A stretch of 64,000 nucleotides of DNA from NCBI GenBank assembly GCA_027450205.1, contig DAIDJL010000004.1, positions 204,413-268,412 of the forward strand, written 5' to 3'. Position 1 is the stretch's first letter; every line of letters begins with the position of its first letter. Position numbers and translations under genes: made by a program. The notes under the pieces were generated by a model. It was not told the origin of the DNA, searched no databases, and worked only from the letters and a program-made list of their open reading frames with translations. Positions 2,611 to 47,167 of this stretch are shown in pieces. The stretch is from Candidatus Parcubacteria bacterium (GTDB lineage: Bacteria; Patescibacteriota; Minisyncoccia; UBA6257; 2-01-FULL-56-20).

Positions 2611-3240
2611 CTATTTTATTTTTTTTGCTGCCTCGAACGTTGCATTCACCGCTGCCCAATCAACGACGTTCCACCAGGCATCAATATAATCTGGGCGCTT
2701 ATTTTGATACTTCAGATAGTAGGCGTGTTCCCAAACGTCAAGGCCAAGCACCGGCGTCTGTTGATTCATGAGCGGACTATCCTGATTCGGCGTTGAGGTG
2801 ATCATGAACTTTCCGTCCTTGTCAGCCACAAGCCACGCCCAGCCGGAACCAAACACGCCCGCCGCCGCCTTAGTGAATAATTCTTTGAATTGCCCAAAGT
2901 CGCTGAACGCGGTCTTGATCTCCGCCGCCACGCGGCCGGTAGGTTCATTGCTCGCATCGGCCTTCATTGGTCCCATGGTGGTCCAAAAGAACGAATGATT
3001 GCTGTGCCCGCCGCCATGATTACGCACCGCCGTGCGGATATCCTCCGGCACCGCGCCCAGATTGCCAAGCAGCTCTTCAAGCGGCTTATCCGCCAATTCG
3101 GGATGTTTTTCAAGCGCCTCATTAAGTTTGTTCACGTACGTCTGGTGATGCTTTGTATAATGGATCTCCATCGTCTTTGCGTCGATATATGGCTCAAGCG
3201 CGTCATAAGCATACGGAAGTTTTGGGAGTTCGTATTTCAT
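2611..3240 (-). CDS. sod: Fe/Mn superoxide dismutase
   Basis: Motifs HYTKHHQTY and DVWEHAYY are present, together with the metal-ligand His/Asp pattern. It is convergent with fmt, with a 1-nt gap. Confidence 0.95.
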
Positions 3241-3330: not shown

Positions 3331-3401
3331 TGGGAGATCGTCTAACGGTAGGACAGGGGCCTTTGAAGCCCTCAATCTAGGTTCGATTCCTAGTCTCCCA
3401 G
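3331..3401 (+). tRNA. tRNA-Gln (anticodon UUG)
   Basis: It folds as a cloverleaf. The acceptor is UGGGAGA/UCUCCCA, the T-arm is CTAGG-TTCGATT-CCTAG, and the anticodon loop cuUUGaa has U33 and A37. CCA is not encoded. Confidence 0.85.
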
Positions 3402-3486
3402 CAGTCTAGTACAAGGTGTTAAACGCCCAGGAAGGGTGGGTTTATTAAGGTTAATTTTTATTCCAAAAAAGATGTAAAATTAAGCC

Positions 3487-6400
3487 ATGGAAATTAAAAA
3501 TTTCAGCTTTTTAAAAGATGAGCCTATTACCCCGGGGACGGTTGGATATTTTGAGTTTTATCATAAATATTTTTCCCCGGCCCTAAAAGATATGATTCTC
3601 TCAGATTCATGTCCCCATACTATTGGACTTTTTAGTAAATGGGGCACTGGCAAAAGTTCGATCATTGATCAATTAAAAACTGATCTCCCTAAGAATATTG
3701 CAAAAGTTTTTATTTTTGACGCTTGGAAATATCAAGAAGATTCGCTGCGCCGAACCTTTCTTATTAAATTTGAAGAATTTCTAAAAAGAGAGGGGTACAC
3801 CATTCCACTGGACGCTCTTTCTGGTTTTTATAAGAATAGGAGCAGTTCTACTTCTAGAAGTGGAAATATAAATTCCGAAAATACTGTAAAGGGCTGGCGA
3901 AGAGTGGGTGCCTTTTTCAAATCATATTGGCAGGTTTTGGTTTTTTTGGTTTTGCCCTTAGTGATTTTAGGAACTTTTAACGTATTACTTGCCTATCACC
4001 CTAGCAATGATTTTTTAATTGGGGTTAAGAATTTTTGTGTTTATTTAACGACGCTGTCGTGGTTTGTTTTCTTTTTAAAGCCAGTAGCCGATAAATTTCT
4101 AGATAAAATTAGCGGGAACATTTTCGCTTCAACCAAACAATATACAGAAATTCGCACTCAGATCGAAGAAGAGGAAAGATTGAATTCTCCCGAACAATTT
4201 GAAGCTGTTTTTAATAAACTGATCAGCCATGTTGATGATAAATTAGTGATCGTATTTGATAATATTGATCGCGTTCACGGAGATGTCGCCCTAAAAACCC
4301 TCTCAACTATAAAAACCTTTTTGGATCCAGAAGAAAAATCTAAGGTTGTTTTTGTAGTTCCTTGCGACTCGGATGCAATAAACCAACAGATTAAGGCATT
4401 TTATAAAAATGAAATCGACGAAAATTTCGACGAGTCCGAATATCTCAAAAAGTTATTCAATGTGATTATATACACTCCAGAATTCATCGACGACGATATT
4501 TATCAATACGCAAATGACCTAATCGCGGAAACTGGAGATCTTAAAGATTTACTTTCAAATGAACAAATCTTTTTAGTTATAAAATCTGCATTTAAAAACA
4601 ATCCAAGAGAAATTAAGCAATTTATTAACAATCTCATTGCTGTAATACTAGTCGTTTCTAAAAGTGAAGTTTCAGAATTATTGTTAAATTCTGATGCAAT
4701 TGGTTTTTTAGCAAAAGTTACTGTTTTGAAACAAAAATTTCCTGAAGCTTACAAAAAATTAAAGGAGAATTGGAGCGATCCACAAGGCGTATTAAGCGAA
4801 CATTCGAGTTCTAATTTAAAAGATTTTTTAACTTTAACGAGTGTTGTTACAACTAATAACGCTGAACCATATATCTATTTTAAGGCTCCACAAATAGAAA
4901 GAGATCTCAATGATTCTGTTGGTATTCGAAAAACATTAATCGAAGGAAATGTCGAAGAATTTGAAAAACTTGCCGCAACCGAAACAAAGAAAGATAAATT
5001 AATTCGTTTTATTGGCAGACTTTTATCTAATTACAAGTCTCAGCCACTAATTTTATTTCAAATTTTTAAGACACAGTTACAAGGATTGGCGGATTTAAAT
5101 GAACAAAGTTCTGCTCCAGACTTTCTCAACAACTGCATAGATGCTATTGAAGCAATTTGGAATAATTACCTGAAATTACCTCCAGGTCTGATATTTGATC
5201 TTTTAATAAAGAGCAATGATCACAAAAGGCGAGAATCAATCTTTGATCGCTATGTTCTTGCCCTAGGTACGGAAGAAATAAAGATCGAAGAAAATAAAAT
5301 ATATCTTCATGATTTAATCAATGAATTAATTAGGAATGAAAGATACCTTACTGCTACTCACCAGCTAGCAATTATGGATGCGATAAGACAAAATCTGGTC
5401 GGGCGAGACGATATTTTACTTCAATTCACCACCCTAGACATTCAAACAAAATTTATAGCTCCTGAGAATCTTAGGAGGATAATTCAAGAAGCTCTAAATA
5501 ACAGAACATTGAAGCATTATTTGGCTATTTTAGATTTATATAAAGAATATATTGGTGTTAATAACTTAGGTCCAAATCTTATCAGTCGGATACCTCAGTT
5601 GATTTCTTTAGAAAATAGCGAAATGCCGAATGCATCACCACGAAAACTTGAGTTTCACGATGCCCTTCTACAAATATTTACCAATTTTGCCAGTTATATC
5701 AAAGATATTCCTCCGGCTCAACAACAAGAAATATTCAATGGTTTGAATACTACCTATCAACAAGTCGGACAAGATCAGTCGATCCTTGCCAAGATAACGA
5801 ATTCCCTTCGTTGGCTCTCGTTAAGGACTACTGACGCTAATACAAAAACCCAGGCAGATGCAAAGGTTAATGCCTTTATATCTCAAGTCGATGGAACCGG
5901 TATGAAGTTGACCTTGAAATACTGGAGTTCAAAATCAAAGATAGCTTTTATAAATAATTACTTTGATTCCATTAAAGCGAGGGCTAATGTAGACGATTCT
6001 GTTCTTATGGAGGTATACGAAGTGGCCGATGAAAGCCAAAAAATAACTTTGATTGATTACATTATAAAAAATCGAGGCGATTCCGGTCTCGGATTCCTAC
6101 AAAAAATTGGTAACTCCCTACCGGATCGAATTAAAATTATCAACCTACTTTTATCAAAAGCTGAGGTGTTAGCCATTCAAGATAGAAAAGGTATTTTTGA
6201 CTATCTGCGAAACAAAATAGATGGAAATGATGACGCGACAGTAAAGCAGACCGCCATTAAGGAGTTCTTAAATTTCCTAAAATCTAAGAATCAAGATTTG
6301 ATTCAATTTGGTACTAGCTTGCTTAACGAACCGTTTTTGAATGATTCCGATCATAGAGAAATCACTAAAGAAATGTTGGCGTTTTACAATAACCCCCCCG

Positions 6401-6762
6401 ACATTCTTCAAAAACACGATCTTAGTTTTATTGACTATTTAATTCGGATAGAAGCGAAACTCCAAAACCCTCTAAAGGAAACTCTTGTATATTTAATTTT
6501 TAAAAATATTAGTCCAGACAGACCTTTTGAAATTATCCCCGCATTAATAGAAGATATCTCCTTGCTCAAGCCTAATTCTGATAAATATGAAAAGGATTAT
6601 AGTGATTTAATTGGGCGTGTAAGCGCATGGACTCCTCCAGATCAAAAGCTCCTCATAGTTCAGCAATTAAACGAGGCCATGAAAGGCATTCCGGGTAAAA
6701 AAACTAAGGATTATATTGCGATCCTAGAAAAACTTGTAAGTGCTGAGAAAGAAGCTAACTAA
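3487..6762 (+). CDS. KAP-family P-loop NTPase (1091 aa) with a large C-terminal alpha-helical domain
   Basis: The Walker A is KAP-type, IGLFSKWGTGKSS. Two TM helices are inserted into the NTPase domain. The Walker B is LVIVFDNIDRV. The gene is very AT-rich. Confidence 0.8.
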   Translation: MEIKNFSFLKDEPITPGTVGYFEFYHKYFSPALKDMILSDSCPHTIGLFSKWGTGKSSIIDQLKTDLPKNIAKVFIFDAWKYQEDSLRRTFLIKFEEFLKREGYTIPLDALSGFYKNRSSSTSRSGNINSENTVKGWRRVGAFFKSYWQVLVFLVLPLVILGTFNVLLAYHPSNDFLIGVKNFCVYLTTLSWFVFFLKPVADKFLDKISGNIFASTKQYTEIRTQIEEEERLNSPEQFEAVFNKLISHVDDKLVIVFDNIDRVHGDVALKTLSTIKTFLDPEEKSKVVFVVPCDSDAINQQIKAFYKNEIDENFDESEYLKKLFNVIIYTPEFIDDDIYQYANDLIAETGDLKDLLSNEQIFLVIKSAFKNNPREIKQFINNLIAVILVVSKSEVSELLLNSDAIGFLAKVTVLKQKFPEAYKKLKENWSDPQGVLSEHSSSNLKDFLTLTSVVTTNNAEPYIYFKAPQIERDLNDSVGIRKTLIEGNVEEFEKLAATETKKDKLIRFIGRLLSNYKSQPLILFQIFKTQLQGLADLNEQSSAPDFLNNCIDAIEAIWNNYLKLPPGLIFDLLIKSNDHKRRESIFDRYVLALGTEEIKIEENKIYLHDLINELIRNERYLTATHQLAIMDAIRQNLVGRDDILLQFTTLDIQTKFIAPENLRRIIQEALNNRTLKHYLAILDLYKEYIGVNNLGPNLISRIPQLISLENSEMPNASPRKLEFHDALLQIFTNFASYIKDIPPAQQQEIFNGLNTTYQQVGQDQSILAKITNSLRWLSLRTTDANTKTQADAKVNAFISQVDGTGMKLTLKYWSSKSKIAFINNYFDSIKARANVDDSVLMEVYEVADESQKITLIDYIIKNRGDSGLGFLQKIGNSLPDRIKIINLLLSKAEVLAIQDRKGIFDYLRNKIDGNDDATVKQTAIKEFLNFLKSKNQDLIQFGTSLLNEPFLNDSDHREITKEMLAFYNNPPDILQKHDLSFIDYLIRIEAKLQNPLKETLVYLIFKNISPDRPFEIIPALIEDISLLKPNSDKYEKDYSDLIGRVSAWTPPDQKLLIVQQLNEAMKGIPGKKTKDYIAILEKLVSAEKEAN

Positions 6763-8089
6763 TTTCATCGAGCATAATAGTTTTTTCGATTAAAACTAAC
6801 TTTGATTTGATTGTATTTAATAGTTTCCTCTTTTCGGGTATCGATCCATCTTCAAGAATATATTTGCTGTAATTTCTAATATCGATATCTTTAGCTCTGC
6901 AATCTTCGATCGATCGACCAAGAATATTGAAGTGGAATTTTTTATGTCGCTCAATTTCCAATTCAAGGTTTTTTCTGATGCCAGATCGATCTAAATCAAT
7001 TTTATTGATTAATTGAACCAATTGGTTAATTAGAGAGCGTTCTTCAATATAGAATTCCTTACAATTAATGTCCTTGGCACGGGTACATCCATAGTAAATA
7101 TATTTTGAGACTTCTCCATTTTTAAGTTTTTTATATTTATCCTGCGCCGTAACCCCTGAGCCACATTTCCCACAAAACATTAATTTCGTAAAAGCGAATT
7201 CCTTGTTAACTCTCGGCGCCTTCCGCTGAAGATCTAGCTGCTCCTGCGCTTCGTCAAAAAGCTCTTTAGAGATGATCGGCTGATGTTTGCCCTGATACCA
7301 TCTTCCGCTTCCCCGTGGATATTCAAATGTGCCGTGATAGAAATGATTATTAAGCAACGTGTAGACATTGCTAATGGTAAATGACTTTCCGTTTCGTGAT
7401 ACAAAGCCCGTTTCTTTGAGCCAGCGATATATCTTCCGGCCACTCCAGCCACCGTGAGCTACTTTCGTAAATATCTCTTTCACGATAGGAGCGCGGATCG
7501 GATCGAGGAATATCTGTCCTTTCTGGTCGACGTTCTTTGAGTTGAAATATCCCGTGGGAGCAACCGACGGCCAGAGTCCCATCTCGCACTTTGTTTTGAG
7601 CCCTCGCTTCACATTGATGCTCTTGTTGTCATTCTCTAGCTTTGCTTGAGAACCGAGAATCATGAGCAGGAATTTCTCGTTTGGATTATTCGTAAATCGC
7701 TGGCTGTGGGTTTTGATTTCGATGAGCTTCTTTTGGTCGAGAAGATCAACGAGGGCGCCGAGGTCACCGGCGTTACGACTCAAACGATCGGGATGCCACA
7801 CAAGAATGGCGTCGAACTTCCCCTCCCGGATATCCGCGAGGAGCTTATTGAATACTGGGCGCTGCCCACAGTCTTTGGCCGAGTGGGATTCCTTATAAAT
7901 GTCGATTACGTTCAAATTGTCCCGTTGGGCCACAAGTAGCATCTCTTTGGTCTGGGAATCGATCGACAAGGCCTGTTTTTCCTCCGCCTCGCTCGATTTA
8001 CGGGCATACAGGCAGTATTGGAGGGGTTGTGCCGTAACTGGCTGTGGACCGCTTATTTGGGCTCCCTGCAGTGGTGTTGTATATTCCAT
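6755..8089 (-). CDS. Large serine recombinase (resolvase/integrase family)
   Basis: A YARKSS catalytic-Ser region, a DRLSRN motif, a recombinase domain and a C-terminal zinc ribbon (CGKCGSG...YYGC) are present. Its 3' end overlaps the KAP gene convergently by 8 nt. Confidence 0.9.
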   Translation of the reverse strand: MEYTTPLQGAQISGPQPVTAQPLQYCLYARKSSEAEEKQALSIDSQTKEMLLVAQRDNLNVIDIYKESHSAKDCGQRPVFNKLLADIREGKFDAILVWHPDRLSRNAGDLGALVDLLDQKKLIEIKTHSQRFTNNPNEKFLLMILGSQAKLENDNKSINVKRGLKTKCEMGLWPSVAPTGYFNSKNVDQKGQIFLDPIRAPIVKEIFTKVAHGGWSGRKIYRWLKETGFVSRNGKSFTISNVYTLLNNHFYHGTFEYPRGSGRWYQGKHQPIISKELFDEAQEQLDLQRKAPRVNKEFAFTKLMFCGKCGSGVTAQDKYKKLKNGEVSKYIYYGCTRAKDINCKEFYIEERSLINQLVQLINKIDLDRSGIRKNLELEIERHKKFHFNILGRSIEDCRAKDIDIRNYSKYILEDGSIPEKRKLLNTIKSKLVLIEKTIMLDEIS

Positions 8090-32370: not shown

Positions 32371-34299
32371 TTAATTCCCTCCGAACTTTGCTTCCTTCAC
32401 CAGCCCCTCCACGAGCAGATCCACGTCAATGGATGCCACGCCTACCACCTTGTCCGCCCCGCCGTAGTAAACATACAGCTGGTGCCGCAGGATGACGGCA
32501 CCGCACGGAAAGACGACATTACTGACGATCCCCTGCCGCTCGTATGCAGGCGTGGGTTCGAGCAATGGGTCGTGCGTACGATATAAGATCTTTGATGGAT
32601 CCTTGAGGTCGAGCAGCGCCGCGCGGACGTTGTAATGGTTGGTGCGCTTGGAAATGCCGTGATACAAGAGAAGCCAGCCATACTTTGTTTCTATCGGCGG
32701 ACCGGAAATGCCGATACGTTTGGAATCCCACGCGGTGTCGCGCGGACGCATGAGCACTTCGCCCTTGAGAAATTTTCCGTCTTTGAACTCAAGGTCGTCC
32801 ACGCGATCGATCCAAATCTCCGAGCCGAGCCGATGCAGGAACACGTATTTTCCGCCGATCTTACGCGGAAATACCGCCGCATCCTTGTCGTCCATGTTCG
32901 GCGGCGAGATCAGGATCGGCGGCGCCCATTGCCATCGGTGCGCAAGAAAATCGTCCACCGCGATGGATGTGAATGCGACGCGCGGCGGATCTTTGCCGTC
33001 GTACGCGGTGTAGCACATATAGATACGGTCGCCGATGCGCGTAATGCGCGGATCCTCGCAGCCGGAGTTGCCGCCCGGCACTTTCTTTTGCTCAAAATCG
33101 GCACGCGGCGCATAGATCGGCTCCGACAGGCGTTCGCTCACGTCCACGCCATCCGGCGATGACGCATAACCGATCACCGACGTGTTATCCCCCGACATTG
33201 CGCGATACAAAATATGGACCTTGCCGCCCTCGTAAATTGCCGCGGGATTGAATGTCGCAAGTGATTCCCACGCATGTTCCGAGATCGGCGTAATGATCGG
33301 GTTGCCCTCAAAGCGCCGCAGTTGCCGGCGTGCGGTGAACACCAATTGCTCCAATAAATCTTTTTTCTTGAACGTCGCCACGCACGATGTCGTGTCCGCC
33401 GCGCCGTAATATACGTGCACGTCGGGACCTTTCATGAGCGCGCCGGACGGGAAAACGACATGCGGCACGCGACCGTAGAATTCGTATTCTTCCTGTGGCA
33501 CGATGAACGGCCGCTTCACTTCACCGACGATCTTTCTCGGATCCTTGAGATCAAGTAAAGCCGCCTGAATGCCAAAGATCGGCGGCGGCGTGAAATAGTT
33601 ATAAATATATGAATAGAAGATAAGCCAGCCGTCTTTGGTTTTGAGCGGTGCGGAGCCGACCTCCACCTGGTCCGATTGCTCGTTTTGCTCTATCGGCAAT
33701 TCATGTTCGGCAAAATGCGCATACCATTCGTCCCAATATTCCTTTGACCATATCTGCTCGATGCTGTCGAAAAGGGCGAGGCAGATCTTTGCCGGCGGCC
33801 GGTCGGTGTTCACCGTGAGGAGCGCGGCGATCTTGCCGCTCACCCGTTCCGGAAAAAGCGCCATTGCCTTCGCGTTGAACGGCGTCACAAGATGCCGCTC
33901 GTCGATCGTCTTAAAATCCCTGGTGATGGCGACCGCCACCTTGATGCCATCGGCGGAAAATTCCCGGACGGCGGTATAGAAAATATAGTAACGGCCTTCG
34001 AATTCCGTAACGCGCGGATCCTCGCAGCCGTAACGCTCCCACTCCTCCATCGGCGCCACGAGCTGCGTACGTGCGCCGCCAAAGCGAACCGCGTTCTTTC
34101 CCGCAATATGGCCAATGGAAGATATCTCCACATCCATGCCGTTCACGTGCGTCTTCGCGCCGGCGGCGCGGAACAGCAAATGGATCATACCACCCTTATC
34201 CTCCACGACCGACGGATTGAACGCCGCCTCCGCTTCCCATGCCGCCGCAGTGTCCGGAATAAGTATCGGATTTTCGGGCGATCGCTTAGCGCCGGCCAT
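32371..34299 (-). CDS. Tandem two-domain GH130-family glycoside hydrolase/phosphorylase-like protein
   Basis: Motifs FNPS/FNPAA, GCEDPR(V/I)T and FP(S/C)GA are repeated twice within the protein. Confidence 0.7.
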   Translation of the reverse strand: MAGAKRSPENPILIPDTAAAWEAEAAFNPSVVEDKGGMIHLLFRAAGAKTHVNGMDVEISSIGHIAGKNAVRFGGARTQLVAPMEEWERYGCEDPRVTEFEGRYYIFYTAVREFSADGIKVAVAITRDFKTIDERHLVTPFNAKAMALFPERVSGKIAALLTVNTDRPPAKICLALFDSIEQIWSKEYWDEWYAHFAEHELPIEQNEQSDQVEVGSAPLKTKDGWLIFYSYIYNYFTPPPIFGIQAALLDLKDPRKIVGEVKRPFIVPQEEYEFYGRVPHVVFPSGALMKGPDVHVYYGAADTTSCVATFKKKDLLEQLVFTARRQLRRFEGNPIITPISEHAWESLATFNPAAIYEGGKVHILYRAMSGDNTSVIGYASSPDGVDVSERLSEPIYAPRADFEQKKVPGGNSGCEDPRITRIGDRIYMCYTAYDGKDPPRVAFTSIAVDDFLAHRWQWAPPILISPPNMDDKDAAVFPRKIGGKYVFLHRLGSEIWIDRVDDLEFKDGKFLKGEVLMRPRDTAWDSKRIGISGPPIETKYGWLLLYHGISKRTNHYNVRAALLDLKDPSKILYRTHDPLLEPTPAYERQGIVSNVVFPCGAVILRHQLYVYYGGADKVVGVASIDVDLLVEGLVKEAKFGGN

Positions 34300-35530
34300 T
34301 GGTCTTTGTGGCGTTCGATTTATTTTCCGGCGTGAGCCGCGGTTTGCCGTACATCTTCAGTTCATTCAAAAAAGTATCGAGGTTCGCCATCGCGACGCAT
34401 ACCACCGAATCCGCGCCGCCATAATAAACATATAATTCGCCGTCATTCACGACCGCCCCGCAGGAATAAATAACGCCCGATTTAAATCCATGGTTCTCAT
34501 AATAAAAGTCCGGTTCGAGGATCGGCGTGCGGGAGCGATAGAGCACTTTTGTGGGATCCTTGAGATCAAGGATCATCGCGCCAAGCTTGTACCGGTTCGG
34601 GTCGCGAAGGTCCATCGCGTGGTAAAGCAGCAGCCAGCCGTCTTTTGTTTTGAGCGGCGGCGGTCCCGCGCCGCGGATCCAGCTATCCCACGCCCCGGTG
34701 TTCGAAATGCGGCTGTATTTGCTTTTAATGACCGCCTCTCCTTCGTCAAAATCATCAAGGTCATCAAAATAATCCACGAGTATGTTCGGCGAGATACTGT
34801 GCAGGATCGCGAACTTGCCGTTGATTTTTTCCGGAAATAATACCCAGTTCTTATGGATCTCCCCTTTCGGCGAGATCATCGCCGGCTTCTTCCATTTCCA
34901 ATTTTTGTTCAAAAAATCCTCAAGGCCGATCGAAGAAAGCGCGATGCGGATGGAACCCCATCCGTCGAATGCGGTATAGGTAAGATAGACAGTGCCTTCG
35001 ATGAGCGTGAGGCGCGGGTCCTCGCAGCCGCCGTTCCATCCGCCGCCGGAAAAATACGCGGGCTCAAGCGGTTTTTGTTCTTCTTTCGGCGTAGCGGCCT
35101 TTGTCGTGACCGGCACGTACGCCGGTTCGTTCAATCGTTCCACGAACGAAATGCCGTCATCGCTTGACGCGTATCCCAGTACCGAAACGTCGTCGCCGCC
35201 AATGGCACGATACAGCAAATGCACGCGATGGTCGGCATAGATCGCGCCGGGGTTGAACGTGGCTTTCATCTCCCAATAATTGCCTTCGCGCGGTTCAATG
35301 ATCGGATTGCTTTCGTGGCGCCCAAGCTGATGCGGGCGCGGGCGCGAAACCATTGGCCGCGCGGCACGCACAGCGCGCAACAGTTTTTTGCTGCGCTGTG
35401 CACGGGTCAACGCAGCTCTCTTTGATGGGATCCTTTTTACCGGCCGCTTCTTTGCCGTCGCTATTTTTTTGCGTGATCGTTCGTTCTTCTGAAGCCCTTG
35501 CTTTTTTTTGATCGGTTTTTTTAACGGCAT
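34286..35530 (-). CDS. GH130-family glycoside hydrolase/phosphorylase-like protein. The annotated N-terminus is a ~70-aa Lys/Arg-rich tail, and the true start may be internal at MVSRPRP.
   Basis: FNPGAIY, GCEDPRLT and YSCGAV are present. There is a 14-nt overlap with the upstream paralogue. Confidence 0.7.
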   Translation of the reverse strand: MPLKKPIKKKQGLQKNERSRKKIATAKKRPVKRIPSKRAALTRAQRSKKLLRAVRAARPMVSRPRPHQLGRHESNPIIEPREGNYWEMKATFNPGAIYADHRVHLLYRAIGGDDVSVLGYASSDDGISFVERLNEPAYVPVTTKAATPKEEQKPLEPAYFSGGGWNGGCEDPRLTLIEGTVYLTYTAFDGWGSIRIALSSIGLEDFLNKNWKWKKPAMISPKGEIHKNWVLFPEKINGKFAILHSISPNILVDYFDDLDDFDEGEAVIKSKYSRISNTGAWDSWIRGAGPPPLKTKDGWLLLYHAMDLRDPNRYKLGAMILDLKDPTKVLYRSRTPILEPDFYYENHGFKSGVIYSCGAVVNDGELYVYYGGADSVVCVAMANLDTFLNELKMYGKPRLTPENKSNATKTNGRR

Positions 35531-42585: not shown

Positions 42586-42622
42586 AAAAAGGCGCCAGGC
42601 ATCCAAAAGGATGCCTGGCGCC
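42586..42622 (-). terminator. Rho-independent terminator (14-bp stem GGCGCCAGGCATCC/GGATGCCTGGCGCC, loop AAAA, then a T-run on the minus strand)
   Basis: Read directly. It follows the stop of 42638..42877. Confidence 0.6.
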
Positions 42623-42637
42623 AAATAGGCCTGTTCA

Positions 42638-42877
42638 TCAAAAGATCTGCGAGGAATGGACCCGGCAGGACGCAGTACGTCGTGAAAGTTTTCGATAGAT
42701 AGCGAGGGTGATGGATCCGAAAGATGCGGCAAATAGCGCTGCAAGAATGGCCACGGTGATATCTCCTCCCGGAAGTTTCAGGGAACGCAGACATACGTCG
42801 GCGACCGCCCACGTCAGAAATAGTGCAGCAATAAAAAAATCGCCGCGGAGGGATTGTACAACACTCTTCTTCTTCAA
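42638..42877 (-). CDS. Small hypothetical membrane protein (79 aa)
   Basis: It has two hydrophobic segments. Confidence 0.3.
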   Translation of the reverse strand: MKKKSVVQSLRGDFFIAALFLTWAVADVCLRSLKLPGGDITVAILAALFAASFGSITLAIYRKLSRRTASCRVHSSQIF

Positions 42878-42937: not shown

Positions 42938-43909
42938 TTATCTTCCAATCAATTTCTTGAACTCTTCCACCATCGGCACCTGCTCCGGTTCCACGCCATA
43001 CATTTTTGCACTGTAATAAGCGGTCCAATCCGCAAGGTTGAGCGCGTTAAAGATCTTATTCAGCTCCGTTTTACCCTGCAGCAAAATGATCTCTGTTTTG
43101 AACCCGCGGTCACGATAGAGCTTTTCCAAAACGTTCATCCGCTTGATGATGCGGCGGTCATCGCCCGCATCTTTCAAAAAAATGAAGTGAAAATTACGTG
43201 AAAGCGGAATGGTCTTCGTCTTTACGTCAAAGCCCGTCATCTCGTTATGGTTCAATTCGGGAACCACGTTATAGAACGCGGGTACCTTGCTCGTCTCGTT
43301 GAATTTTATCTTCCAATTCTGCGCAAGCGCCATATTTCGCGTTGACGCGTAGATGATCGGCACCACGCCGTGGATGCGCCGCGCGAGATCTTTGCCACGA
43401 AGCTCTTCCCGTGACGGGTGCAGCTGGGTAGCAAGCAGCTTCGATTCCGCGAGCAGATTCTTCTCGCCCATCAGCGCGAGCATCGCCTTCAAACTGAGCC
43501 CCGTCGCCATGCGCGGCTGAAGGTGCAGGTCCGGCATCTTCACGTACGGAATTTTCGCCTTATCGGCGAGCGAGATCAGCTTTCCTTTCGCAGCGATGAC
43601 GGCAAAGTGCATCTTCCTGGCCTTTGCTGCCGCGAACGCGTCAACCACTTCTTCAGTACTGCCCGAGTACGAGCTTAAAATGATCAAGCGGTCTTTAAGC
43701 TCTTTTTCCGCGAGCGGCGGAAGGCCGTAGCTGGACCACACGATGATGTCGATCTCCGGGTGCCACGCCCGGATCAAACTGGCCGCCAGATGCGATCCGC
43801 CCATCCCTATAACCACAAATTTGCCAAACTTCTTCAGTTTGGCGGCGTTTTCGATGACTGGCTCAAAATCGAACTGTTTACCGTAATGCTTTATATCGTC
43901 GGGGATCAT
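42938..43909 (-). CDS. Bifunctional phosphoglucose/phosphomannose isomerase (SIS domain, archaeal-type PGI/PMI)
   Basis: GMGGSHLAASL and SYSGSTEE SIS motifs are present. Confidence 0.8.
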   Translation of the reverse strand: MIPDDIKHYGKQFDFEPVIENAAKLKKFGKFVVIGMGGSHLAASLIRAWHPEIDIIVWSSYGLPPLAEKELKDRLIILSSYSGSTEEVVDAFAAAKARKMHFAVIAAKGKLISLADKAKIPYVKMPDLHLQPRMATGLSLKAMLALMGEKNLLAESKLLATQLHPSREELRGKDLARRIHGVVPIIYASTRNMALAQNWKIKFNETSKVPAFYNVVPELNHNEMTGFDVKTKTIPLSRNFHFIFLKDAGDDRRIIKRMNVLEKLYRDRGFKTEIILLQGKTELNKIFNALNLADWTAYYSAKMYGVEPEQVPMVEEFKKLIGR

Positions 43910-43969: not shown

Positions 43970-46483
43970 CTATTTCCCCTTCCCCTGATCTATCGCATGC
44001 CCTCCGAAGCGGTTTCGCAGCGCAGACAGCACCTTCCCGATGTAGCTTGGCGACTTCTTGGACCTCACGCGGAACTTGAACGAGTCTTCGATAACGGGCA
44101 CGGGCACTTTCATTTTCTTGCCGGTTTTGACCGTCCACTCCCCTTCGCCAGTGTACGCGACGGAACCGGAGACGGTTTTTAGATCCTGCCCGTACATTTT
44201 ATACGCTTCGCCAAGCCACCCAACAAGTTTTGACTCAATCACGCTACCACGATTGTAGACCTCCGCCACCTGCTCGAGATCCAACTTGAACGGCGACTTT
44301 TTCATAATAGCGAATCCTTCCGCGAGCGACTGCATCATGCCGTACTCAATGCCGTTGTGCACCATCTTTACGAAATGGCCGGCGCCAGCGGAACCGAAGT
44401 ACGAATAACCGCCCGGCACGGAGAGATCGCGGAAGAGCGGTTCCAGGCGTTCGAAGATCTGTTTTTCCCCGCCGATCATGAGCGATCCGCCATTGCGCGC
44501 GCCCGACGGCCCGCCCGAAAATCCCACGTCCATAAAGTGAATGCCGCGCTTTTTGAGCAGCTTGGCGCGGCGCACCGTATCCTCGTAGAACGCGTTCGCC
44601 GCATCGATCACAATGTCGCCTTTCTTTAAATATTGCGCCAAACCGTCCTTCCCAAAGAGCAGATCGTCGTTTCCCTTGCCAGCCGTGATCATCAGCCAGA
44701 TGATGCGCGGCGCCTTGAGCTGTGCCACAAGGTCGGCATGCGAGAACACGCCCTCAATGCCTTCTTTCTGGATCATCTCCACCGGCCCGGGCGAGCGGTT
44801 GGACGCAATAATGCGCCAGCCCTTCTCGTGCAGCTGCCGTGCGACATTCGCCCCCATCTTCCCCAAACCAAAAATGCCGATCTCCTTTCGAACCAGACCC
44901 CGGCCGGAATTTTTCGCTGCAGCAGAATTGGAGGTATCTTTCGGCGGATCAAGCAATGTCGTTGCCTCGACGACCACCGTTTCCGAATCCGGCGCATAGC
45001 GACGAAGCGGTACGAGTCCTTTCGCCCATCCTTTTACGATCGGATCTACAAAGCGCCACATCGCCGCAATCTCACGACTTGAAACAAACAGCGTCTGGTC
45101 GCCATTGATGCAATCAAGCAAAAGTTTTTCGTATTCTTCCGTGTATTGCGATTTACGCTCGCCCTGCCGCAGGTCGATCGTAAACACGCGTTCTTCAAGC
45201 TCCATCGCAAGCCCCGGCTTCTTTGCCCAAAACCGGATCACGATCCCTTCGTGCGGATCCTGCCGGAACGTGATGGAGTTCCTAAAATGCTCCACTGACG
45301 CGCCTGGGAGCTTTCCTCTTCCGTCCGCGACATAAAGCGCGCAGAGACATGGCTGCTCATGCCTGAAGACCACCTCGATCTCGGTGATCTCGCCATCCCT
45401 CTTGGGTCCAACCACGCGCTTGCCCGCTTCTATGAATATCGGCACACCTTTCCAACGCGAATGCGTAAGTTCAAGCCCAACCTTAAAATATGTCTCCACA
45501 CTAGACCTCGGATCCACACCCTTGATGGCCCGATAGCCGTCATACTGTGCGCGGAACGTCTTTTGCGCCACCTCGGACGGCGTGAACGGCTTGATTGTTT
45601 CCAGGATCGCCGCGCGAGCATCGCGGATCGCGTCGGCACCCATGTTGCGCGGCTCGTCCATTGTAACGAGCGCGATCATCTCCAATAGGTGGTTCTGCCC
45701 GACATCGCGCAAAGCTCCCACGCTTTCATAGAACGGGCCGCGATCTTCGGCACCGACATTCTCCAGCTCGCGCACATTGATCTTTTCTATCAGATTACGG
45801 CCCCAATTATCTTCAAAAAGATTATTGAAGAAACGGAACGTTAAAATGTTCTGCAATGTCTCTTTTGCCAAATAATGGTCGATACGATAGACCTGTTCTT
45901 CTTTGAACAACCGCGCAATGCGCTCGTCGAGCGCCTTCGCACCCTTTTCATCGCTGCCGAACGGCTTTTCGACCACTACGCGCGTCCAGCCGCCTGCCGC
46001 GGGATCGCAGAGTTCCGTCAATCGCGCCTTATGGATGTTTGTGAATATTGTCTCGTAAAACTGCGGCGGAACGGAAAGATAGAACAGCTTATTGGAGCAC
46101 TGGCCGTGCTCATCGTCGATCCTTCTGAGCGCGTCGCCAAGCGCCACATAGTCCGCGTATGCATCAAACGTAATTTTATGATATATCACCGTCTTGAGAA
46201 ACGATGCCACGGAGGCGGGCGATGCGTGCTTTACCCTAACTTCCAAAATGGCCTGAATGTGGCGCTTGAGGTCGTCATCCGTCCAGTCGCGCCGCGAAAC
46301 ACCGACAAGGCGGAAATGTGCCGGCAATAGCCCCCGCTCATGCAGATTGAAGAGCGCTGGCGCTATTTTTTTTGCCATAAGGTCGCCGGTGACGCCCAGC
46401 ACGACGAACGTGGTGGGTTGCTGTGATTTTTGAGTGGTCATGATGGTTTGTTTATTATACACCGCCGGAGCGGAAAATATCAT
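43970..46483 (-). CDS. zwf: Fusion protein with N-terminal glucose-6-phosphate 1-dehydrogenase and a C-terminal 6-phosphogluconate dehydrogenase-like (NAD(P)-binding, short form) domain
   Basis: The N-terminus carries LGVTGDLMAKK and RIDHYLAKE, which are G6PD motifs. The C-terminus carries IGIFGLGKMGANVARQL, a 6PGDH/HIBADH Rossmann motif. The total is 837 aa. Confidence 0.8.
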   Translation of the reverse strand: MIFSAPAVYNKQTIMTTQKSQQPTTFVVLGVTGDLMAKKIAPALFNLHERGLLPAHFRLVGVSRRDWTDDDLKRHIQAILEVRVKHASPASVASFLKTVIYHKITFDAYADYVALGDALRRIDDEHGQCSNKLFYLSVPPQFYETIFTNIHKARLTELCDPAAGGWTRVVVEKPFGSDEKGAKALDERIARLFKEEQVYRIDHYLAKETLQNILTFRFFNNLFEDNWGRNLIEKINVRELENVGAEDRGPFYESVGALRDVGQNHLLEMIALVTMDEPRNMGADAIRDARAAILETIKPFTPSEVAQKTFRAQYDGYRAIKGVDPRSSVETYFKVGLELTHSRWKGVPIFIEAGKRVVGPKRDGEITEIEVVFRHEQPCLCALYVADGRGKLPGASVEHFRNSITFRQDPHEGIVIRFWAKKPGLAMELEERVFTIDLRQGERKSQYTEEYEKLLLDCINGDQTLFVSSREIAAMWRFVDPIVKGWAKGLVPLRRYAPDSETVVVEATTLLDPPKDTSNSAAAKNSGRGLVRKEIGIFGLGKMGANVARQLHEKGWRIIASNRSPGPVEMIQKEGIEGVFSHADLVAQLKAPRIIWLMITAGKGNDDLLFGKDGLAQYLKKGDIVIDAANAFYEDTVRRAKLLKKRGIHFMDVGFSGGPSGARNGGSLMIGGEKQIFERLEPLFRDLSVPGGYSYFGSAGAGHFVKMVHNGIEYGMMQSLAEGFAIMKKSPFKLDLEQVAEVYNRGSVIESKLVGWLGEAYKMYGQDLKTVSGSVAYTGEGEWTVKTGKKMKVPVPVIEDSFKFRVRSKKSPSYIGKVLSALRNRFGGHAIDQGKGK

Positions 46484-46486
46484 TCC

Positions 46487-47167
46487 TCATTCCCCTATCT
46501 TGTACCCGTACCCATGAACGGTCTTTATGAGCTTCTGCCTATGACCCTCGTCTATCTTGGCACGAAGGAACCGCACATGGACGTCCACCGTGTTGGTGAA
46601 CGGGTCGGCATTGATATCCCACACGTGTTCCAGGATCATTCCGCGCGTGAGCGTGGTACCGGCATTGCGCATGAGATATTCAAGCAGGGTGAACTCCTTT
46701 CGGTTCAGTTTGATCTCCCTCCCTGCGCGGGTGACCGTATGCGCAAGCGTGTCCATCTCCAGGTCCGCGATCACGAGCTTCGGCCCGGTCAATGTCTTTT
46801 CGCGGCGCAGAAGCGCGCGCATGCGCGCGACCAGTTCCGCCACAAAGAACGGCTTGGTGAGATAATCATCCGCACCGGTATTAAGCGCGGCGATCTTGGT
46901 GGGCGCATCGTTGATGACGGAGAGCATGATGATCGGATATGTCCGGCCTTTCGCGCGTATCTCCGCGCAGATATCGATGCCGCTCTCCCCGTGCCCGAGG
47001 TTAATGTCTATGATCGCAAGATCGTACGCATTGACCTTTCCCCACATGAGCCCTTTCGCGCCCGTCTCCGCCCAATCGACCGCAAAATGCTCCGCCCTAA
47101 GCCCGTTTATGATGAACTGCGCTATCTCCCGCTCATCCTCGACCAATAATATTTTCATATCACCCAC
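46487..47167 (-). CDS. OmpR-family two-component response regulator
   Basis: It has a receiver domain (VEDE, D in AIIDINL, K in TKP) and a winged-helix domain. Confidence 0.9.
   Translation of the reverse strand: MGDMKILLVEDEREIAQFIINGLRAEHFAVDWAETGAKGLMWGKVNAYDLAIIDINLGHGESGIDICAEIRAKGRTYPIIMLSVINDAPTKIAALNTGADDYLTKPFFVAELVARMRALLRREKTLTGPKLVIADLEMDTLAHTVTRAGREIKLNRKEFTLLEYLMRNAGTTLTRGMILEHVWDINADPFTNTVDVHVRFLRAKIDEGHRQKLIKTVHGYGYKIGE

What the first reader, a model, noticed from the sequence alone, without database searches (positions are those of the whole stretch)
43970..46483. Single-polypeptide fusion of glucose-6-phosphate dehydrogenase with a 6-phosphogluconate-dehydrogenase-like domain
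The N-terminal ~500 aa has G6PD signatures, GDLMAKK and RIDHYLAKE. The C-terminal ~330 aa begins with a textbook Rossmann motif, IGIFGLGKMGANVARQL, of the 6PGDH/beta-hydroxyacid dehydrogenase family.

This would fuse steps 1 and 3 of the oxidative pentose-phosphate pathway. It is encoded next to a PGI/PMI gene and an orphan response regulator. I saw no separate 6-phosphogluconolactonase in the window.
Basis: partly seen in the sequence, partly recalled or inferred. Interest (0 to 1): 0.5.

Follow-up and report, generated by a model that had tools for sequence, protein, structure and literature searches.

The report
Fused G6PD–6PGDH pentose-phosphate enzyme gene

Summary
Window 43970..46483 (-) is one uninterrupted 837-aa frame, and the true start is probably M15 at 46441 (823 aa). 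Residues 23-499 score as glucose-6-phosphate dehydrogenase (TIGR00871, 424 bits, cut-off 400.6). Residues 535-832 score as short-type decarboxylating 6-phosphogluconate dehydrogenase (TIGR00872, 334 bits, cut-off 297). HIBADH and tartronate-semialdehyde reductase models fall far below their cut-offs.

It is not an artefact. At least 118 90%-identity clusters from four data sources have the same architecture. So do about 13 more full-length 50%-identity clusters and 16 species-representative genomes (Wolfe-, Magasanik-, Doudna-, Woesebacteria, Paceibacteria, and three Coriobacteriia-type MAGs). All catalytic motifs of both halves are conserved. The 24-45-aa linker varies by in-frame indels and is disordered in AlphaFold2.

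Many relatives have separate, adjacent zwf→gnd genes, and in one they are a single stop codon from fusion, so stop-codon loss is the likely origin. Both halves carry NADP-type cofactor residues.

No 6-phosphogluconolactonase lies in the window or within 10 kb of any fused locus. A PGI/PMI gene follows in the close relatives.

The proteins are publicly named only as G6PD or 6PGDH. The only fusion of this kind found in the searched literature is in the diatom Phaeodactylum. Modest interest.

The parts
43970..46483 (-). Whole ORF of the fusion protein. It is 837 aa from the first ATG, and the probable true start is ATG 46441 (M15), giving 823 aa.
   Evidence: One stop-free frame. Homologues start at the position of M15. 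The promoter-like site overlaps codons 1-10.
44987..46417 (-). Glucose-6-phosphate dehydrogenase module (residues 23-499). Motifs: GVTGDL 30-35, R64-R65, EKPFG 172-176, RIDHYLAKE 200-208, catalytic His265 in GQNHLLE 262-268.
   Evidence: TIGR00871 424.3 bits against a 400.6 cut-off. Pfam G6PD_N and G6PD_C. Motifs invariant or nearly so in 119 and 80 family members. The AF2 model matches L. mesenteroides and human G6PD with TM(target) 0.85-0.89.
44888..44962 (-). Inter-domain linker (about residues 508-532). It is unconserved, rich in A/E/P/D/S and variable in length.
   Evidence: No conserved columns. The length between residues 497 and 535 ranges from 24 to 45 aa across 119 homologues, through in-frame indels. 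The only long stretch with pLDDT below 50 is model residues 502-515, which are ORF residues 516-529.
43988..44881 (-). Short-type decarboxylating 6-phosphogluconate dehydrogenase module (residues 535-832). Motifs: GLGKMG 539-544, N562-R563, SGGPSGA 656-662, GAGHFVKMVHNGIEYG 700-715 (K706, H709, N710, E713), TGEGEWT 778-784, LRNRFGGH 822-829.
   Evidence: TIGR00872 333.8 bits against 297.2 and NF007161 343.7 against 271. End-to-end alignment to the solved short 6PGDHs 6vpb, 8ihe, 4e21 and 6xeq. Motif conservation.
46454..46483 (-). Sigma-70-like promoter match (ATGATA-18 nt-TATAAT, 10 of 12), just upstream of the M15 start codon.
   Evidence: (consensus match only) and the sequence read.
42938..43909 (-). 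SIS-type bifunctional phosphoglucose/phosphomannose isomerase family gene, 60 nt downstream on the same strand. It is the probable supplier of glucose-6-phosphate.
   Evidence: Pfam bact-PGI_C 1.7e-38. The NCBIfam PGI/PMI models are the best hits but fall below their cut-offs. The gene lies immediately downstream of the fusion in L001 and the P0088 locus, within 1-3 kb downstream in L002 and L003, and directly after a separate gnd in L038 and L043.
42591..42622 (-). Strong terminator-like hairpin (14-bp stem, 11 G-C pairs, T tail). It is the first on this strand after the fusion, PGI and a 79-aa ORF (42638..42877), and so the possible end of the transcription unit.
   Evidence: pattern match only.
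46487..47167 (-). OmpR-type response regulator immediately upstream. No histidine kinase was found in the window. It is context only, with no evidence that it regulates the fusion.
   Evidence: Pfam Response_reg and Trans_reg_C. The same position is occupied in L001 but not in L002, L003 or the P0088 locus.

Best explanation
The gene encodes a genuine bifunctional enzyme. The N-terminal glucose-6-phosphate dehydrogenase oxidises glucose-6-phosphate to 6-phosphoglucono-δ-lactone. The C-terminal short-type 6-phosphogluconate dehydrogenase oxidatively decarboxylates 6-phosphogluconate to ribulose-5-phosphate and CO2. Both probably use NADP+, so the polypeptide yields two NADPH per hexose phosphate. 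The two modules fold independently and are joined by a flexible 24-45-residue linker. The intervening lactone hydrolysis is not encoded in the protein or nearby. It is inferred either to occur spontaneously, as is chemically known for the δ-lactone, or to be done by an enzyme encoded elsewhere. The fusion most likely arose by loss of the stop codon between adjacent zwf→gnd genes, an arrangement common in related CPR bacteria, and fused and split states have interconverted more than once. Together with the downstream PGI/PMI gene it forms a compact module running from fructose-6-P or mannose-6-P through glucose-6-P to ribulose-5-P plus 2 NADPH. Shown here: the continuous frame, the identity of both domains, conservation of the catalytic residues, recurrence across lineages, linker behaviour and gene neighbourhood. 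Inferred: both activities, the cofactor preference, the fate of the lactone, the operon structure and the selective benefit (1:1 co-expression and co-localisation).
For: There is a single frame. Both halves exceed the curated equivalog cut-offs. All G6PD motifs (TGDL, EKPFG, DHYLxKE, QNH) and all 6PGDH motifs (GLGKMG, SGG, KMVHNGIEY, R..FGGH tail) are invariant or nearly so in 119 and 80 fused homologues. At least 118 full-length fused 90%-identity clusters come from NCBI, JGI, ENA and Logan at 54-88% identity. About 13 further full-length fused 50%-identity clusters lie at 39-52% identity, and further fragments span the junction. Sixteen species-representative genomes carry a single-frame fusion. 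The linker is variable, in frame and disordered. The AF2 model has mean pLDDT 87 with both modules confident. R64 and R65 in the G6PD half and N562-R563 in the 6PGDH half match NADP-type enzymes: the NADP form 2w90 has N-R, whereas the NAD+-dependent Gnd2 (8ihe) has D-H. Split zwf→gnd neighbours occur in 13 CPR genomes, and in L007 they are separated only by TAG plus 9 in-frame nucleotides. Fused and split forms interleave in the half-trees and nearest-neighbour lists. PGI lies directly or closely downstream in the close relatives.
Against: There is no biochemical evidence for this or any other G6PD-6PGDH fusion. The cofactor assignment rests on two or three residues, and NCBI's best equivalog model for the C-half is named NAD+-dependent. 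The RIDHYLGKE motif has Ala in place of the canonical Gly; this is shared with many unfused relatives, but its effect is unknown. The two fused enzymes catalyse non-consecutive steps, so direct substrate channelling cannot be the simple rationale. G6PD and 6PGDH each need their own homo-oligomeric interfaces, and whether one chain can satisfy both was not tested. The promoter, terminator and operon calls are pattern matches only. The trees are neighbour-joining with weak deep resolution.
Confidence: 0.8

Rival explanations
1. The fusion is an artefact. A sequencing or assembly error removed the stop codon or a frameshift between two separate adjacent genes, zwf and gnd.
For: Separate adjacent zwf→gnd genes do exist in related CPR genomes, sometimes only a stop codon apart. 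Metagenome assemblies contain indel errors; L003, for example, has visibly fragmented genes.
Against: The same continuous frame is found in at least 118 90%-identity clusters from four independent repositories. These include contigs of 0.8-0.9 Mb and proteins seen on up to 16 contigs. It is also found in 16 species-representative genomes. Linker lengths differ by whole codons. GC content is uniform across the gene.
Confidence: 0.02
2. The C-terminal module is not a 6PGDH but another β-hydroxyacid dehydrogenase, such as 3-hydroxyisobutyrate, tartronate-semialdehyde or L-threonate dehydrogenase. The protein would then not couple two pentose-phosphate steps.
For: The N-terminal Rossmann domain (PF03446) is shared by the whole β-hydroxyacid dehydrogenase superfamily. 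Weak hits to HIBADH and TSR models exist, and NAD_binding_11 gives a weak hit.
Against: The scores for those families are 45-80 bits against cut-offs of 290-450, while gnd_rel and NF007161 pass theirs. The 6PGDH-specific KMVHNGIEYG catalytic motif and the tail R..FGGH are conserved. The closest PDB hits are all 6PGDHs at 1e-57 to 1e-60.
Confidence: 0.03
3. The gene is translated as one chain, but the functional species are two separate enzymes, produced by proteolysis in the disordered linker or by internal translation initiation. Post-translational cleavage has been suspected for at least some of the diatom metabolic fusion proteins.
For: The linker is disordered and exposed. Kroth et al. [quoted passage not shown] Fused and split gene states interconvert easily in this clade, which suggests that covalent linkage is not essential.
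Against: No conserved cleavage motif or conserved internal start and ribosome-binding site is visible in the variable linker. The fused state has been retained over sequence divergence down to about 40% identity.
Confidence: 0.1
4. One of the two modules is catalytically dead or repurposed as a regulatory or scaffolding domain, leaving a monofunctional enzyme.
For: Public annotation pipelines give the protein only one function, either G6PD or 6PGDH. The G6PD substrate motif deviates from the PROSITE consensus, with DHYLAKE in place of DHYLGKE.
Against: Every catalytic and substrate-binding residue checked is conserved in both halves across the family. The Ala variant is also common in unfused G6PDs of the same clade. 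The single-function names simply reflect best-hit naming.
Confidence: 0.05

Closest known systems
G6PDH/6PGDH fusion protein of the diatom Phaeodactylum tricornutum (protein ID 54663; Kroth et al. 2008, PMC2173943; Stover et al. 2011, PMC3148214)
   Same: [quoted passage not shown] Both skip the lactonase.
   Different: The diatom fusion is eukaryotic, cytosolic and reported as restricted to one species and its closest relatives. Its reality was questioned by re-annotation, and it has never been characterised. The fusion here is bacterial, recurs across many CPR classes and some Coriobacteriia-type MAGs, and uses the roughly 300-aa short-type (gnd_rel) 6PGDH.
G6PD::6PGL bifunctional enzymes: Plasmodium GluPho, the Giardia and Trichomonas G6PD::6PGL, and metazoan H6PD (PDB 8em2)
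   Same: A G6PD module is covalently joined to another oxidative pentose-phosphate enzyme. These fusions arose several times independently (Stover 2011). A bacterial example of this type, P0246, turned up in the same search.
   Different: Those enzymes fuse consecutive steps 1 and 2, with a Glucosamine_iso-type lactonase domain. The window protein has no lactonase domain and instead fuses steps 1 and 3.
Stand-alone short-type 6PGDH: M. tuberculosis Gnd2 (PDB 8ihe, NAD+-dependent), Geobacter metallireducens 4e21, 6vpb and 6xeq; NCBIfam TIGR00872 gnd_rel
   Same: The C-half aligns over its full length at E of 1e-57 to 1e-60. It has the same catalytic motif, the same lack of the duplicated helical domain found in 470-aa enzymes, and the same R..FGGH tail.
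   Different: The C-half is fused to G6PD. It has N-R at the cofactor-discriminating position instead of Asp-x, and it lacks two surface insertions present in the solved short forms.
Separate, adjacent zwf→gnd gene pairs in CPR bacteria (for example L007, L020, L026, L027, L033-L040), Bacillales (L023, L024) and Mycobacterium (L028-L032)
   Same: The gene order is the same, and for the CPR pairs the protein subfamilies are also the same, at 41-49% identity to the window's G6PD half and 36-60% to its 6PGDH half by tblastn. This is the probable ancestral state.
   Different: These pairs have two polypeptides. The split CPR forms mostly carry the NAD-type Asp in the 6PGDH cofactor site (9 of 13), against N-R in 31 of 37 fused forms.

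Membership tests
Glucose-6-phosphate dehydrogenase (zwf; TIGR00871, Pfam PF00479 + PF02781) | Profile score above the curated equivalog cut-off over the full domain | tested here: met
   TIGR00871 scores 424.3 bits against a 400.6 cut-off, residues 23-499 on profile positions 2-465 of 486. G6PD_N scores 187 bits and G6PD_C 236 bits.
Glucose-6-phosphate dehydrogenase (zwf; TIGR00871, Pfam PF00479 + PF02781) | The three conserved G6PD motifs: the GxxGDL dinucleotide fingerprint, EKPxG, and RIDHYLGKE (Asp/His/Lys substrate site). The motif definitions are from my own knowledge of the family (PROSITE PS00069; L. mesenteroides D177/H178/K182). | tested here: met
   GVTGDL 30-35, EKPFG 172-176 and RIDHYLAKE 200-208. 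D, H, Y, K and E are invariant in 80 homologues. Gly is replaced by Ala at 206, a substitution shared with many unfused relatives.
Glucose-6-phosphate dehydrogenase (zwf; TIGR00871, Pfam PF00479 + PF02781) | Catalytic general-base His (L. mesenteroides H240, human H263) in the QNH(L/M)(L/M) context | tested here: met
   His265 lies in GQNHLLE. Q, N and H are invariant. The model superposes on 1dpg and 2bh9 with TM(target) 0.85-0.87.
Glucose-6-phosphate dehydrogenase (zwf; TIGR00871, Pfam PF00479 + PF02781) | Measured G6P:NAD(P)+ oxidoreductase activity | not testable with these tools
   This needs a recombinant enzyme assay.
Short-type decarboxylating 6-phosphogluconate dehydrogenase (TIGR00872 gnd_rel / NF007161) | Profile score above the curated cut-off over the full length of about 300 aa | tested here: met
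   TIGR00872 scores 333.8 bits against 297.2 (profile positions 3-296 of 299). NF007161 scores 343.7 against 271 (2-300 of 302).
Short-type decarboxylating 6-phosphogluconate dehydrogenase (TIGR00872 gnd_rel / NF007161) | Catalytic Lys and Glu plus the His/Asn/Tyr of the K-M-V-H-N-G-I-E-Y motif (sheep K183, H186, N187, E190, Y191; numbering from my own knowledge) and the Ser of S-G-G | tested here: met
   K706, H709, N710, E713 and Y714 lie in GAGHFVKMVHNGIEYG, and S656 lies in SGGPSGA. All are invariant in 80 homologues and aligned to solved enzymes.
Short-type decarboxylating 6-phosphogluconate dehydrogenase (TIGR00872 gnd_rel / NF007161) | C-terminal tail R-x-x-F-G-x-H, which completes the partner subunit's substrate site (sheep R446/H452 equivalents; my own knowledge) | tested here: met
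   LRNRFGGH at 822-829 is conserved in fused, split and non-CPR forms and aligned to the tails of 6vpb, 8ihe and 4e21. Dimer formation itself was not tested.
Short-type decarboxylating 6-phosphogluconate dehydrogenase (TIGR00872 gnd_rel / NF007161) | Cofactor preference. TIGR00872 is named NAD+-dependent, while NF007161 is named NADP-dependent. | tested here: inconclusive
   N562-R563 resembles the NADP-dependent enzyme 2w90 (N-R) and differs from the NAD+-dependent Gnd2, 8ihe (D-H). This is a residue-level inference only.
β-Hydroxyacid dehydrogenases other than 6PGDH (HIBADH TIGR01692, tartronate semialdehyde reductase TIGR01505, L-threonate dehydrogenase NF043037) | Profile score above the curated cut-off | tested here: not met
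   The scores are 74.0 against 291.6, 80.5 against 340.75 and 71.2 against 350.
G6PD::6PGL bifunctional enzymes (GluPho / H6PD type) | Presence of a 6-phosphogluconolactonase (Glucosamine_iso, PF01182) domain on the same chain | tested here: not met
   There is no PF01182 hit in the protein. The only non-domain segment is the 24-45-aa linker.
Natural G6PD-6PGDH fusion (diatom type, Phatr 54663) | G6PD and 6PGDH domains in one reading frame without an intervening stop | tested here: met
   The description of the diatom protein comes from PMC3148214 and PMC2173943.
Natural G6PD-6PGDH fusion (diatom type, Phatr 54663) | Common descent with the diatom fusion (same fusion event) | not tested
   The diatom sequence was not retrievable with the tools. 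An independent origin is likely, given the split zwf→gnd intermediates within the CPR.

The most novel reading that the evidence does not exclude
The fusion may be the core of a lactonase-free oxidative pentose-phosphate branch in genome-reduced bacteria. Tethering an NADP-type 6PGDH to G6PD, possibly in a mixed oligomer built from G6PD-G6PD and 6PGDH-6PGDH interfaces, would keep 6-phosphogluconate formed by spontaneous lactone hydrolysis next to its consumer and make a dedicated 2-NADPH generator. The association of the fused state with an NAD-to-NADP switch in the 6PGDH cofactor site (31 of 37 fused forms against 3 of 13 split CPR forms) would then be adaptive rather than a phylogenetic accident.
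Probability: 0.2. Interest if true: 0.45.

Novelty: new member of a known kind. Interest (0 to 1): 0.3.

Why it matters
Three practical points follow.

1. Annotation. Hundreds of public CPR proteins of about 800 aa are named only "glucose-6-phosphate dehydrogenase" or only "6-phosphogluconate dehydrogenase". Metabolic reconstructions of Patescibacteria that count gene names can therefore wrongly score one of the two NADPH-forming steps as missing.

2. Literature. The searched literature treats natural G6PD fusions as essentially G6PD+lactonase. [quoted passage not shown] A widespread natural step-1/step-3 fusion is a ready-made template for compact NADPH-regeneration enzymes.

3. Evolution and physiology. 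The clade offers fused, one-stop-codon-from-fused and split states side by side, which makes it a clean natural system for studying gene fusion and fission. It also raises the question of how these organisms handle the lactone.

None of this overturns current understanding. Both enzymes are textbook, and fusion of neighbouring operon genes is a common event.

Tried and rejected
1. An α/β-hydrolase gene overlaps the stop codon of the fusion by 4 nt in L002, and I considered it a candidate non-canonical lactonase. A tblastn search found it in no other locus and not in the window, so I dropped it.

2. A DevB-type 6PGL probe (P0246 residues 521-768) found lactonase genes beside zwf in 21 non-CPR loci. 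It gave weak hits in two CPR loci with unfused genes (L020, L055). It found none in any fused locus or in the window.

3. The idea that the response regulator is a conserved partner was rejected. It is adjacent only in the window and L001, not in L002, L003 or the P0088 locus.

4. The idea that the fusion is CPR-exclusive was rejected. Three high-GC contigs labelled Coriobacteriia, Actinomycetes and Slackia carry it. A neighbouring gene of L014 has its best named relatives in Coriobacteriia and Anaerosomatales.

5. Many non-CPR hits seemed to cover the whole query. Frame analysis showed them to be separate genes, mostly in the reverse order gnd→zwf.

6. Literature searches for a bacterial or CPR G6PD-6PGDH fusion found nothing.

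7. Searches of solved structures by sequence and by fold found no chain covering both modules.
Full report
OBSERVATION

The window carries a single uninterrupted 837-codon frame at 43970..46483 on the minus strand.

Pfam finds four domains:
- G6PD_N at residues 27-212
- G6PD_C at 214-500
- NAD_binding_2 at 534-688
- 6PGD at 702-810, covering only the first 115 of 290 profile positions

NCBIfam places the N-half in the zwf equivalog (TIGR00871, 424.3 bits, cut-off 400.6). It places the C-half in the short 6PGDH families (TIGR00872 gnd_rel, 333.8 against 297.2; NF007161, 343.7 against 271). 3-Hydroxyisobutyrate dehydrogenase, tartronate-semialdehyde reductase and L-threonate dehydrogenase score 71-80 bits against cut-offs of 290-350.

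The true start is probably M15 (ATG at 46441). Homologues begin at that position, and a sigma-70-like match, ATGATA-18-TATAAT, occupies 46483..46454.

IS THE FUSION REAL?

Several independent lines say yes.
- A search of 5.8 billion cluster representatives returned 120 listed hits at 54-88% identity. Of these, 118 are at least 770 aa and carry all four domains at 97-99% query coverage. They come from NCBI, JGI, ENA and Logan assemblies and include contigs of 0.8-0.9 Mb.
- An exhaustive HMMER scan of 1.84 billion 50%-identity representatives added about 13 further full-length fused clusters (730-808 aa, 39-52% identity), plus fragments that span the junction.
- Among species-representative genomes, 16 loci carry both halves in one stop-free frame.
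- In an alignment of 119 fused proteins, the segment between the last G6PD helix and the 6PGDH Rossmann strand is unconserved. It is rich in Ala, Glu, Pro, Asp and Ser, and it varies from 24 to 45 residues by in-frame indels.
- AlphaFold2, run with an 80-sequence alignment, gives mean pLDDT 87.4 with both modules confident. The only long segment below pLDDT 50 is model residues 502-515, which are ORF residues 516-529 and fall in the linker. The pTM of 0.62 fits two modules without a fixed mutual orientation.

An assembly artefact is excluded.

ARE BOTH HALVES COMPETENT?

G6PD half. TGDL, EKPFG, D202, H203, Y204, K207, E208 and the QNH motif containing the catalytic His265 are invariant or nearly so. 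The only deviation from the classical RIDHYLGKE signature is Ala206, which many unfused relatives share. The model superposes on L. mesenteroides and human G6PD with target-normalised TM scores of 0.85-0.89.

6PGDH half. GLGKMG, S656-G-G, K706, H709, N710, E713, Y714 and the C-terminal LRNRFGGH are conserved. The half aligns end to end with the solved short-type enzymes 6vpb, 8ihe, 4e21 and 6xeq at E of 1e-57 to 1e-60. By my own knowledge of the sheep enzyme, these residues are the general base and acid, the substrate ligands, and the tail Arg/His that enter the partner subunit's active site.

Cofactor. R64-R65 in the G6PD half occupy the position of the 2'-phosphate-binding Arg. The 6PGDH half has N562-R563, like the NADP-dependent 2w90 (N-R) and unlike the NAD+-dependent M. 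tuberculosis Gnd2 (D-H) and the other solved short forms (D-x). I therefore infer, but have not shown, that both halves make NADPH.

No solved structure covers both modules, by sequence or by fold (query-normalised TM is about 0.52).

DISTRIBUTION AND ORIGIN

Names attached to fused proteins and loci include Candidatus Paceibacterota and Minisyncoccia, Woesebacteria and Microgenomates, Wolfebacteria, Magasanikbacteria, Doudnabacteria and "Patescibacteria group". Three high-GC contigs (0.64-0.68) labelled Coriobacteriia, Actinomycetes and Slackia also carry the fusion. A neighbouring gene on one of them has its best named relatives in Coriobacteriia and Anaerosomatales. So the fusion is not strictly confined to the CPR. 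Those three group together inside the CPR-type clade, which suggests lateral transfer.

Frame analysis of the 80 best genome loci gave three arrangements:
- 16 fused
- about 22 separate but adjacent in the order zwf→gnd: 13 CPR, two Bacillales and six Mycobacterium/Actinomycetota
- about 32 separate in the order gnd→zwf: Chloroflexota, Acidobacteriota, Deinococcus, Bacteroidota, Chlorobiales and others

In the Parcubacteria MAG L007 the two genes are in the same frame, separated only by TAG plus nine nucleotides before the ATG of gnd. That is one substitution from a fusion.

In a neighbour-joining tree of the 6PGDH half, and in nearest-neighbour lists for both halves, fused and split CPR forms are interleaved. 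For example, fused L018 and split L027 share 67% identity in the C-half, and fused L016 and L021 group with split L026 and L027 in the N-half. The simplest reading is stop-codon loss in a zwf→gnd operon, with more than one fusion or fission event. The deep nodes are poorly resolved, so I do not give a number.

A genuinely stand-alone G6PD that is 52% identical to the N-half also exists, in a Minisyncoccota MAG without an adjacent gnd.

CONTEXT AND THE MISSING LACTONASE

Sixty nucleotides downstream, on the same strand, lies a SIS-type phosphoglucose/phosphomannose isomerase family gene. Its Pfam bact-PGI_C hit is 1.7e-38. The PGI/PMI NCBIfam models are its best hits but fall below their cut-offs.

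The same gene lies directly after the fusion in L001 and in the P0088 locus. It lies within 1-3 kb downstream in L002 and L003, and directly after a separate gnd in L038 and L043, while the outer flanks differ. It is not adjacent in the more distant fused loci.

No terminator-like hairpin lies between the two genes. The first strong one on this strand is at 42622..42591.

Two GH130 β-mannoside phosphorylase-family genes lie at 32371..35530 and recur near the fusion in L001 and the P0088 locus. This makes a route from mannose and hexose phosphates to ribulose-5-P plausible, but that is inference.

No window ORF has a lactonase domain. A DevB-type 6PGL probe detected lactonase genes beside zwf in 21 non-CPR loci but found none in the window or within 10 kb of any fused locus. 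A translationally coupled α/β-hydrolase in L002 proved unique to that locus and was dropped.

Whether a lactonase is encoded elsewhere in these genomes could not be tested. From established chemistry, 6-phosphoglucono-δ-lactone hydrolyses spontaneously, so the pathway can run without one.

AN ASSOCIATION WORTH TESTING

In the sampled set, 31 of 37 fused proteins have N-R at the 6PGDH cofactor site. Of 13 split CPR homologues, 9 have the NAD-type Asp, as do all 8 split non-CPR homologues. These counts are not corrected for shared ancestry.

COMPARISON WITH WHAT IS KNOWN

A G6PDH/6PGDH fusion was noted in the diatom Phaeodactylum tricornutum (Kroth 2008, PMC2173943; Stover 2011, PMC3148214). It was reported as restricted to that species and its closest relatives, it was questioned by re-annotation, and it has never been characterised.

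G6PD::6PGL fusions (Plasmodium, Giardia and Trichomonas, and metazoan H6PD) are well known. They join steps 1 and 2.

I found no paper describing a bacterial or CPR G6PD-6PGDH fusion. [quoted passage not shown]

In public databases the fused proteins carry single-function names.

VERDICT

The finding is correct. It is a real, conserved, probably NADP-dependent bifunctional G6PD-6PGDH, formed by read-through of adjacent zwf→gnd genes. It is a new, bacterial and widespread member of an already recorded kind of fusion between textbook enzymes.

Its value lies in three places: correcting annotation and metabolic reconstruction for Patescibacteria, serving as a natural template for NADPH-regenerating enzymes, and providing a tidy fusion/fission system. 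Interest is modest (0.3).

Noticed in passing
window 3331-8089: tRNA-Gln (3331-3402) is followed by a low-GC stretch (0.33-0.40, against about 0.55 elsewhere). The stretch carries a 1091-aa KAP-family P-loop NTPase (3487-6762, +) and a large serine recombinase (6755-8089, -). It looks like a mobile element integrated at the tRNA gene.
   Followed up: no
P0213 (735 aa; NCBI/Logan, 102-kb contig): This is a different pentose-phosphate fusion: a classical PGI (PF00342, residues 64-430) joined to a short-type 6PGDH (442-713). P0246 (768 aa) is a bacterial-metagenome G6PD::6PGL fusion.
   Followed up: partly
L007:4890-5010 (Parcubacteria MAG JBEEJY010000010.1): zwf ends ...VIV-TAG. Nine nucleotides later, in the same frame, gnd starts with ATG (MQKTIGIIGLGKMG). 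The gene pair is a single substitution away from the fused state.
   Followed up: yes
L011, L012, L014 (contigs labelled Coriobacteriia / Actinomycetes / Slackia; GC 0.64-0.68): These high-GC, non-CPR MAG contigs carry the same single-frame fusion (49-55% identity). They cluster together within the CPR-type clade. A neighbouring cell-wall-binding protein of L014 has its best named relatives in Coriobacteriia and Anaerosomatales. Lateral transfer between the CPR and Actinomycetota seems likely.
   Followed up: partly
6PGDH cofactor position (window residues 561-564) across loci L006-L085 and P0121-P0270: N-R (NADP-type) is found in 31 of 37 fused proteins. It is found in only 3 of 13 split CPR homologues, 9 of which have the NAD-type Asp. 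The counts are not corrected for phylogeny.
   Followed up: partly
window 32371-35530 (-): Two adjacent GH130 (β-1,4-mannooligosaccharide phosphorylase family) genes lie here. A GH130 pair also sits next to the fusion-PGI pair in the P0088 locus, and one GH130 gene lies about 9 kb downstream in L001. This hints at a link between mannoside use, the PMI/PGI and the oxidative branch.
   Followed up: no
window 46454-46483 (-): A sigma-70-like promoter match lies inside the first 14 codons of the longest ORF, only about 12 nt upstream of the M15 ATG. This suggests a very short leader or a leaderless mRNA. A second TATAAT sits about 10 nt upstream of the PGI start.
   Followed up: partly
window 2611-3240 (-): An Fe/Mn superoxide dismutase gene lies here, consistent with an oxygen-exposed lifestyle in which NADPH supply for redox defence would matter.
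   Followed up: no
L045, L051 (Nitrospirota MAGs): Their gnd is CPR-like (52-53% identity to the window's C-half, nesting among CPR sequences). The adjacent zwf, however, is only 31% identical to the N-half, and the gene order is gnd→zwf. The two genes therefore have different histories there.
   Followed up: no
P0139 (868 aa, JGI, 4.2-kb contig): This G6PD is 50% identical to the window's N-half. It has a C-terminal extension of about 420 aa with no Pfam match at E of 1e-5 or better. It may be another fusion partner or a read-through artefact.
   Followed up: no
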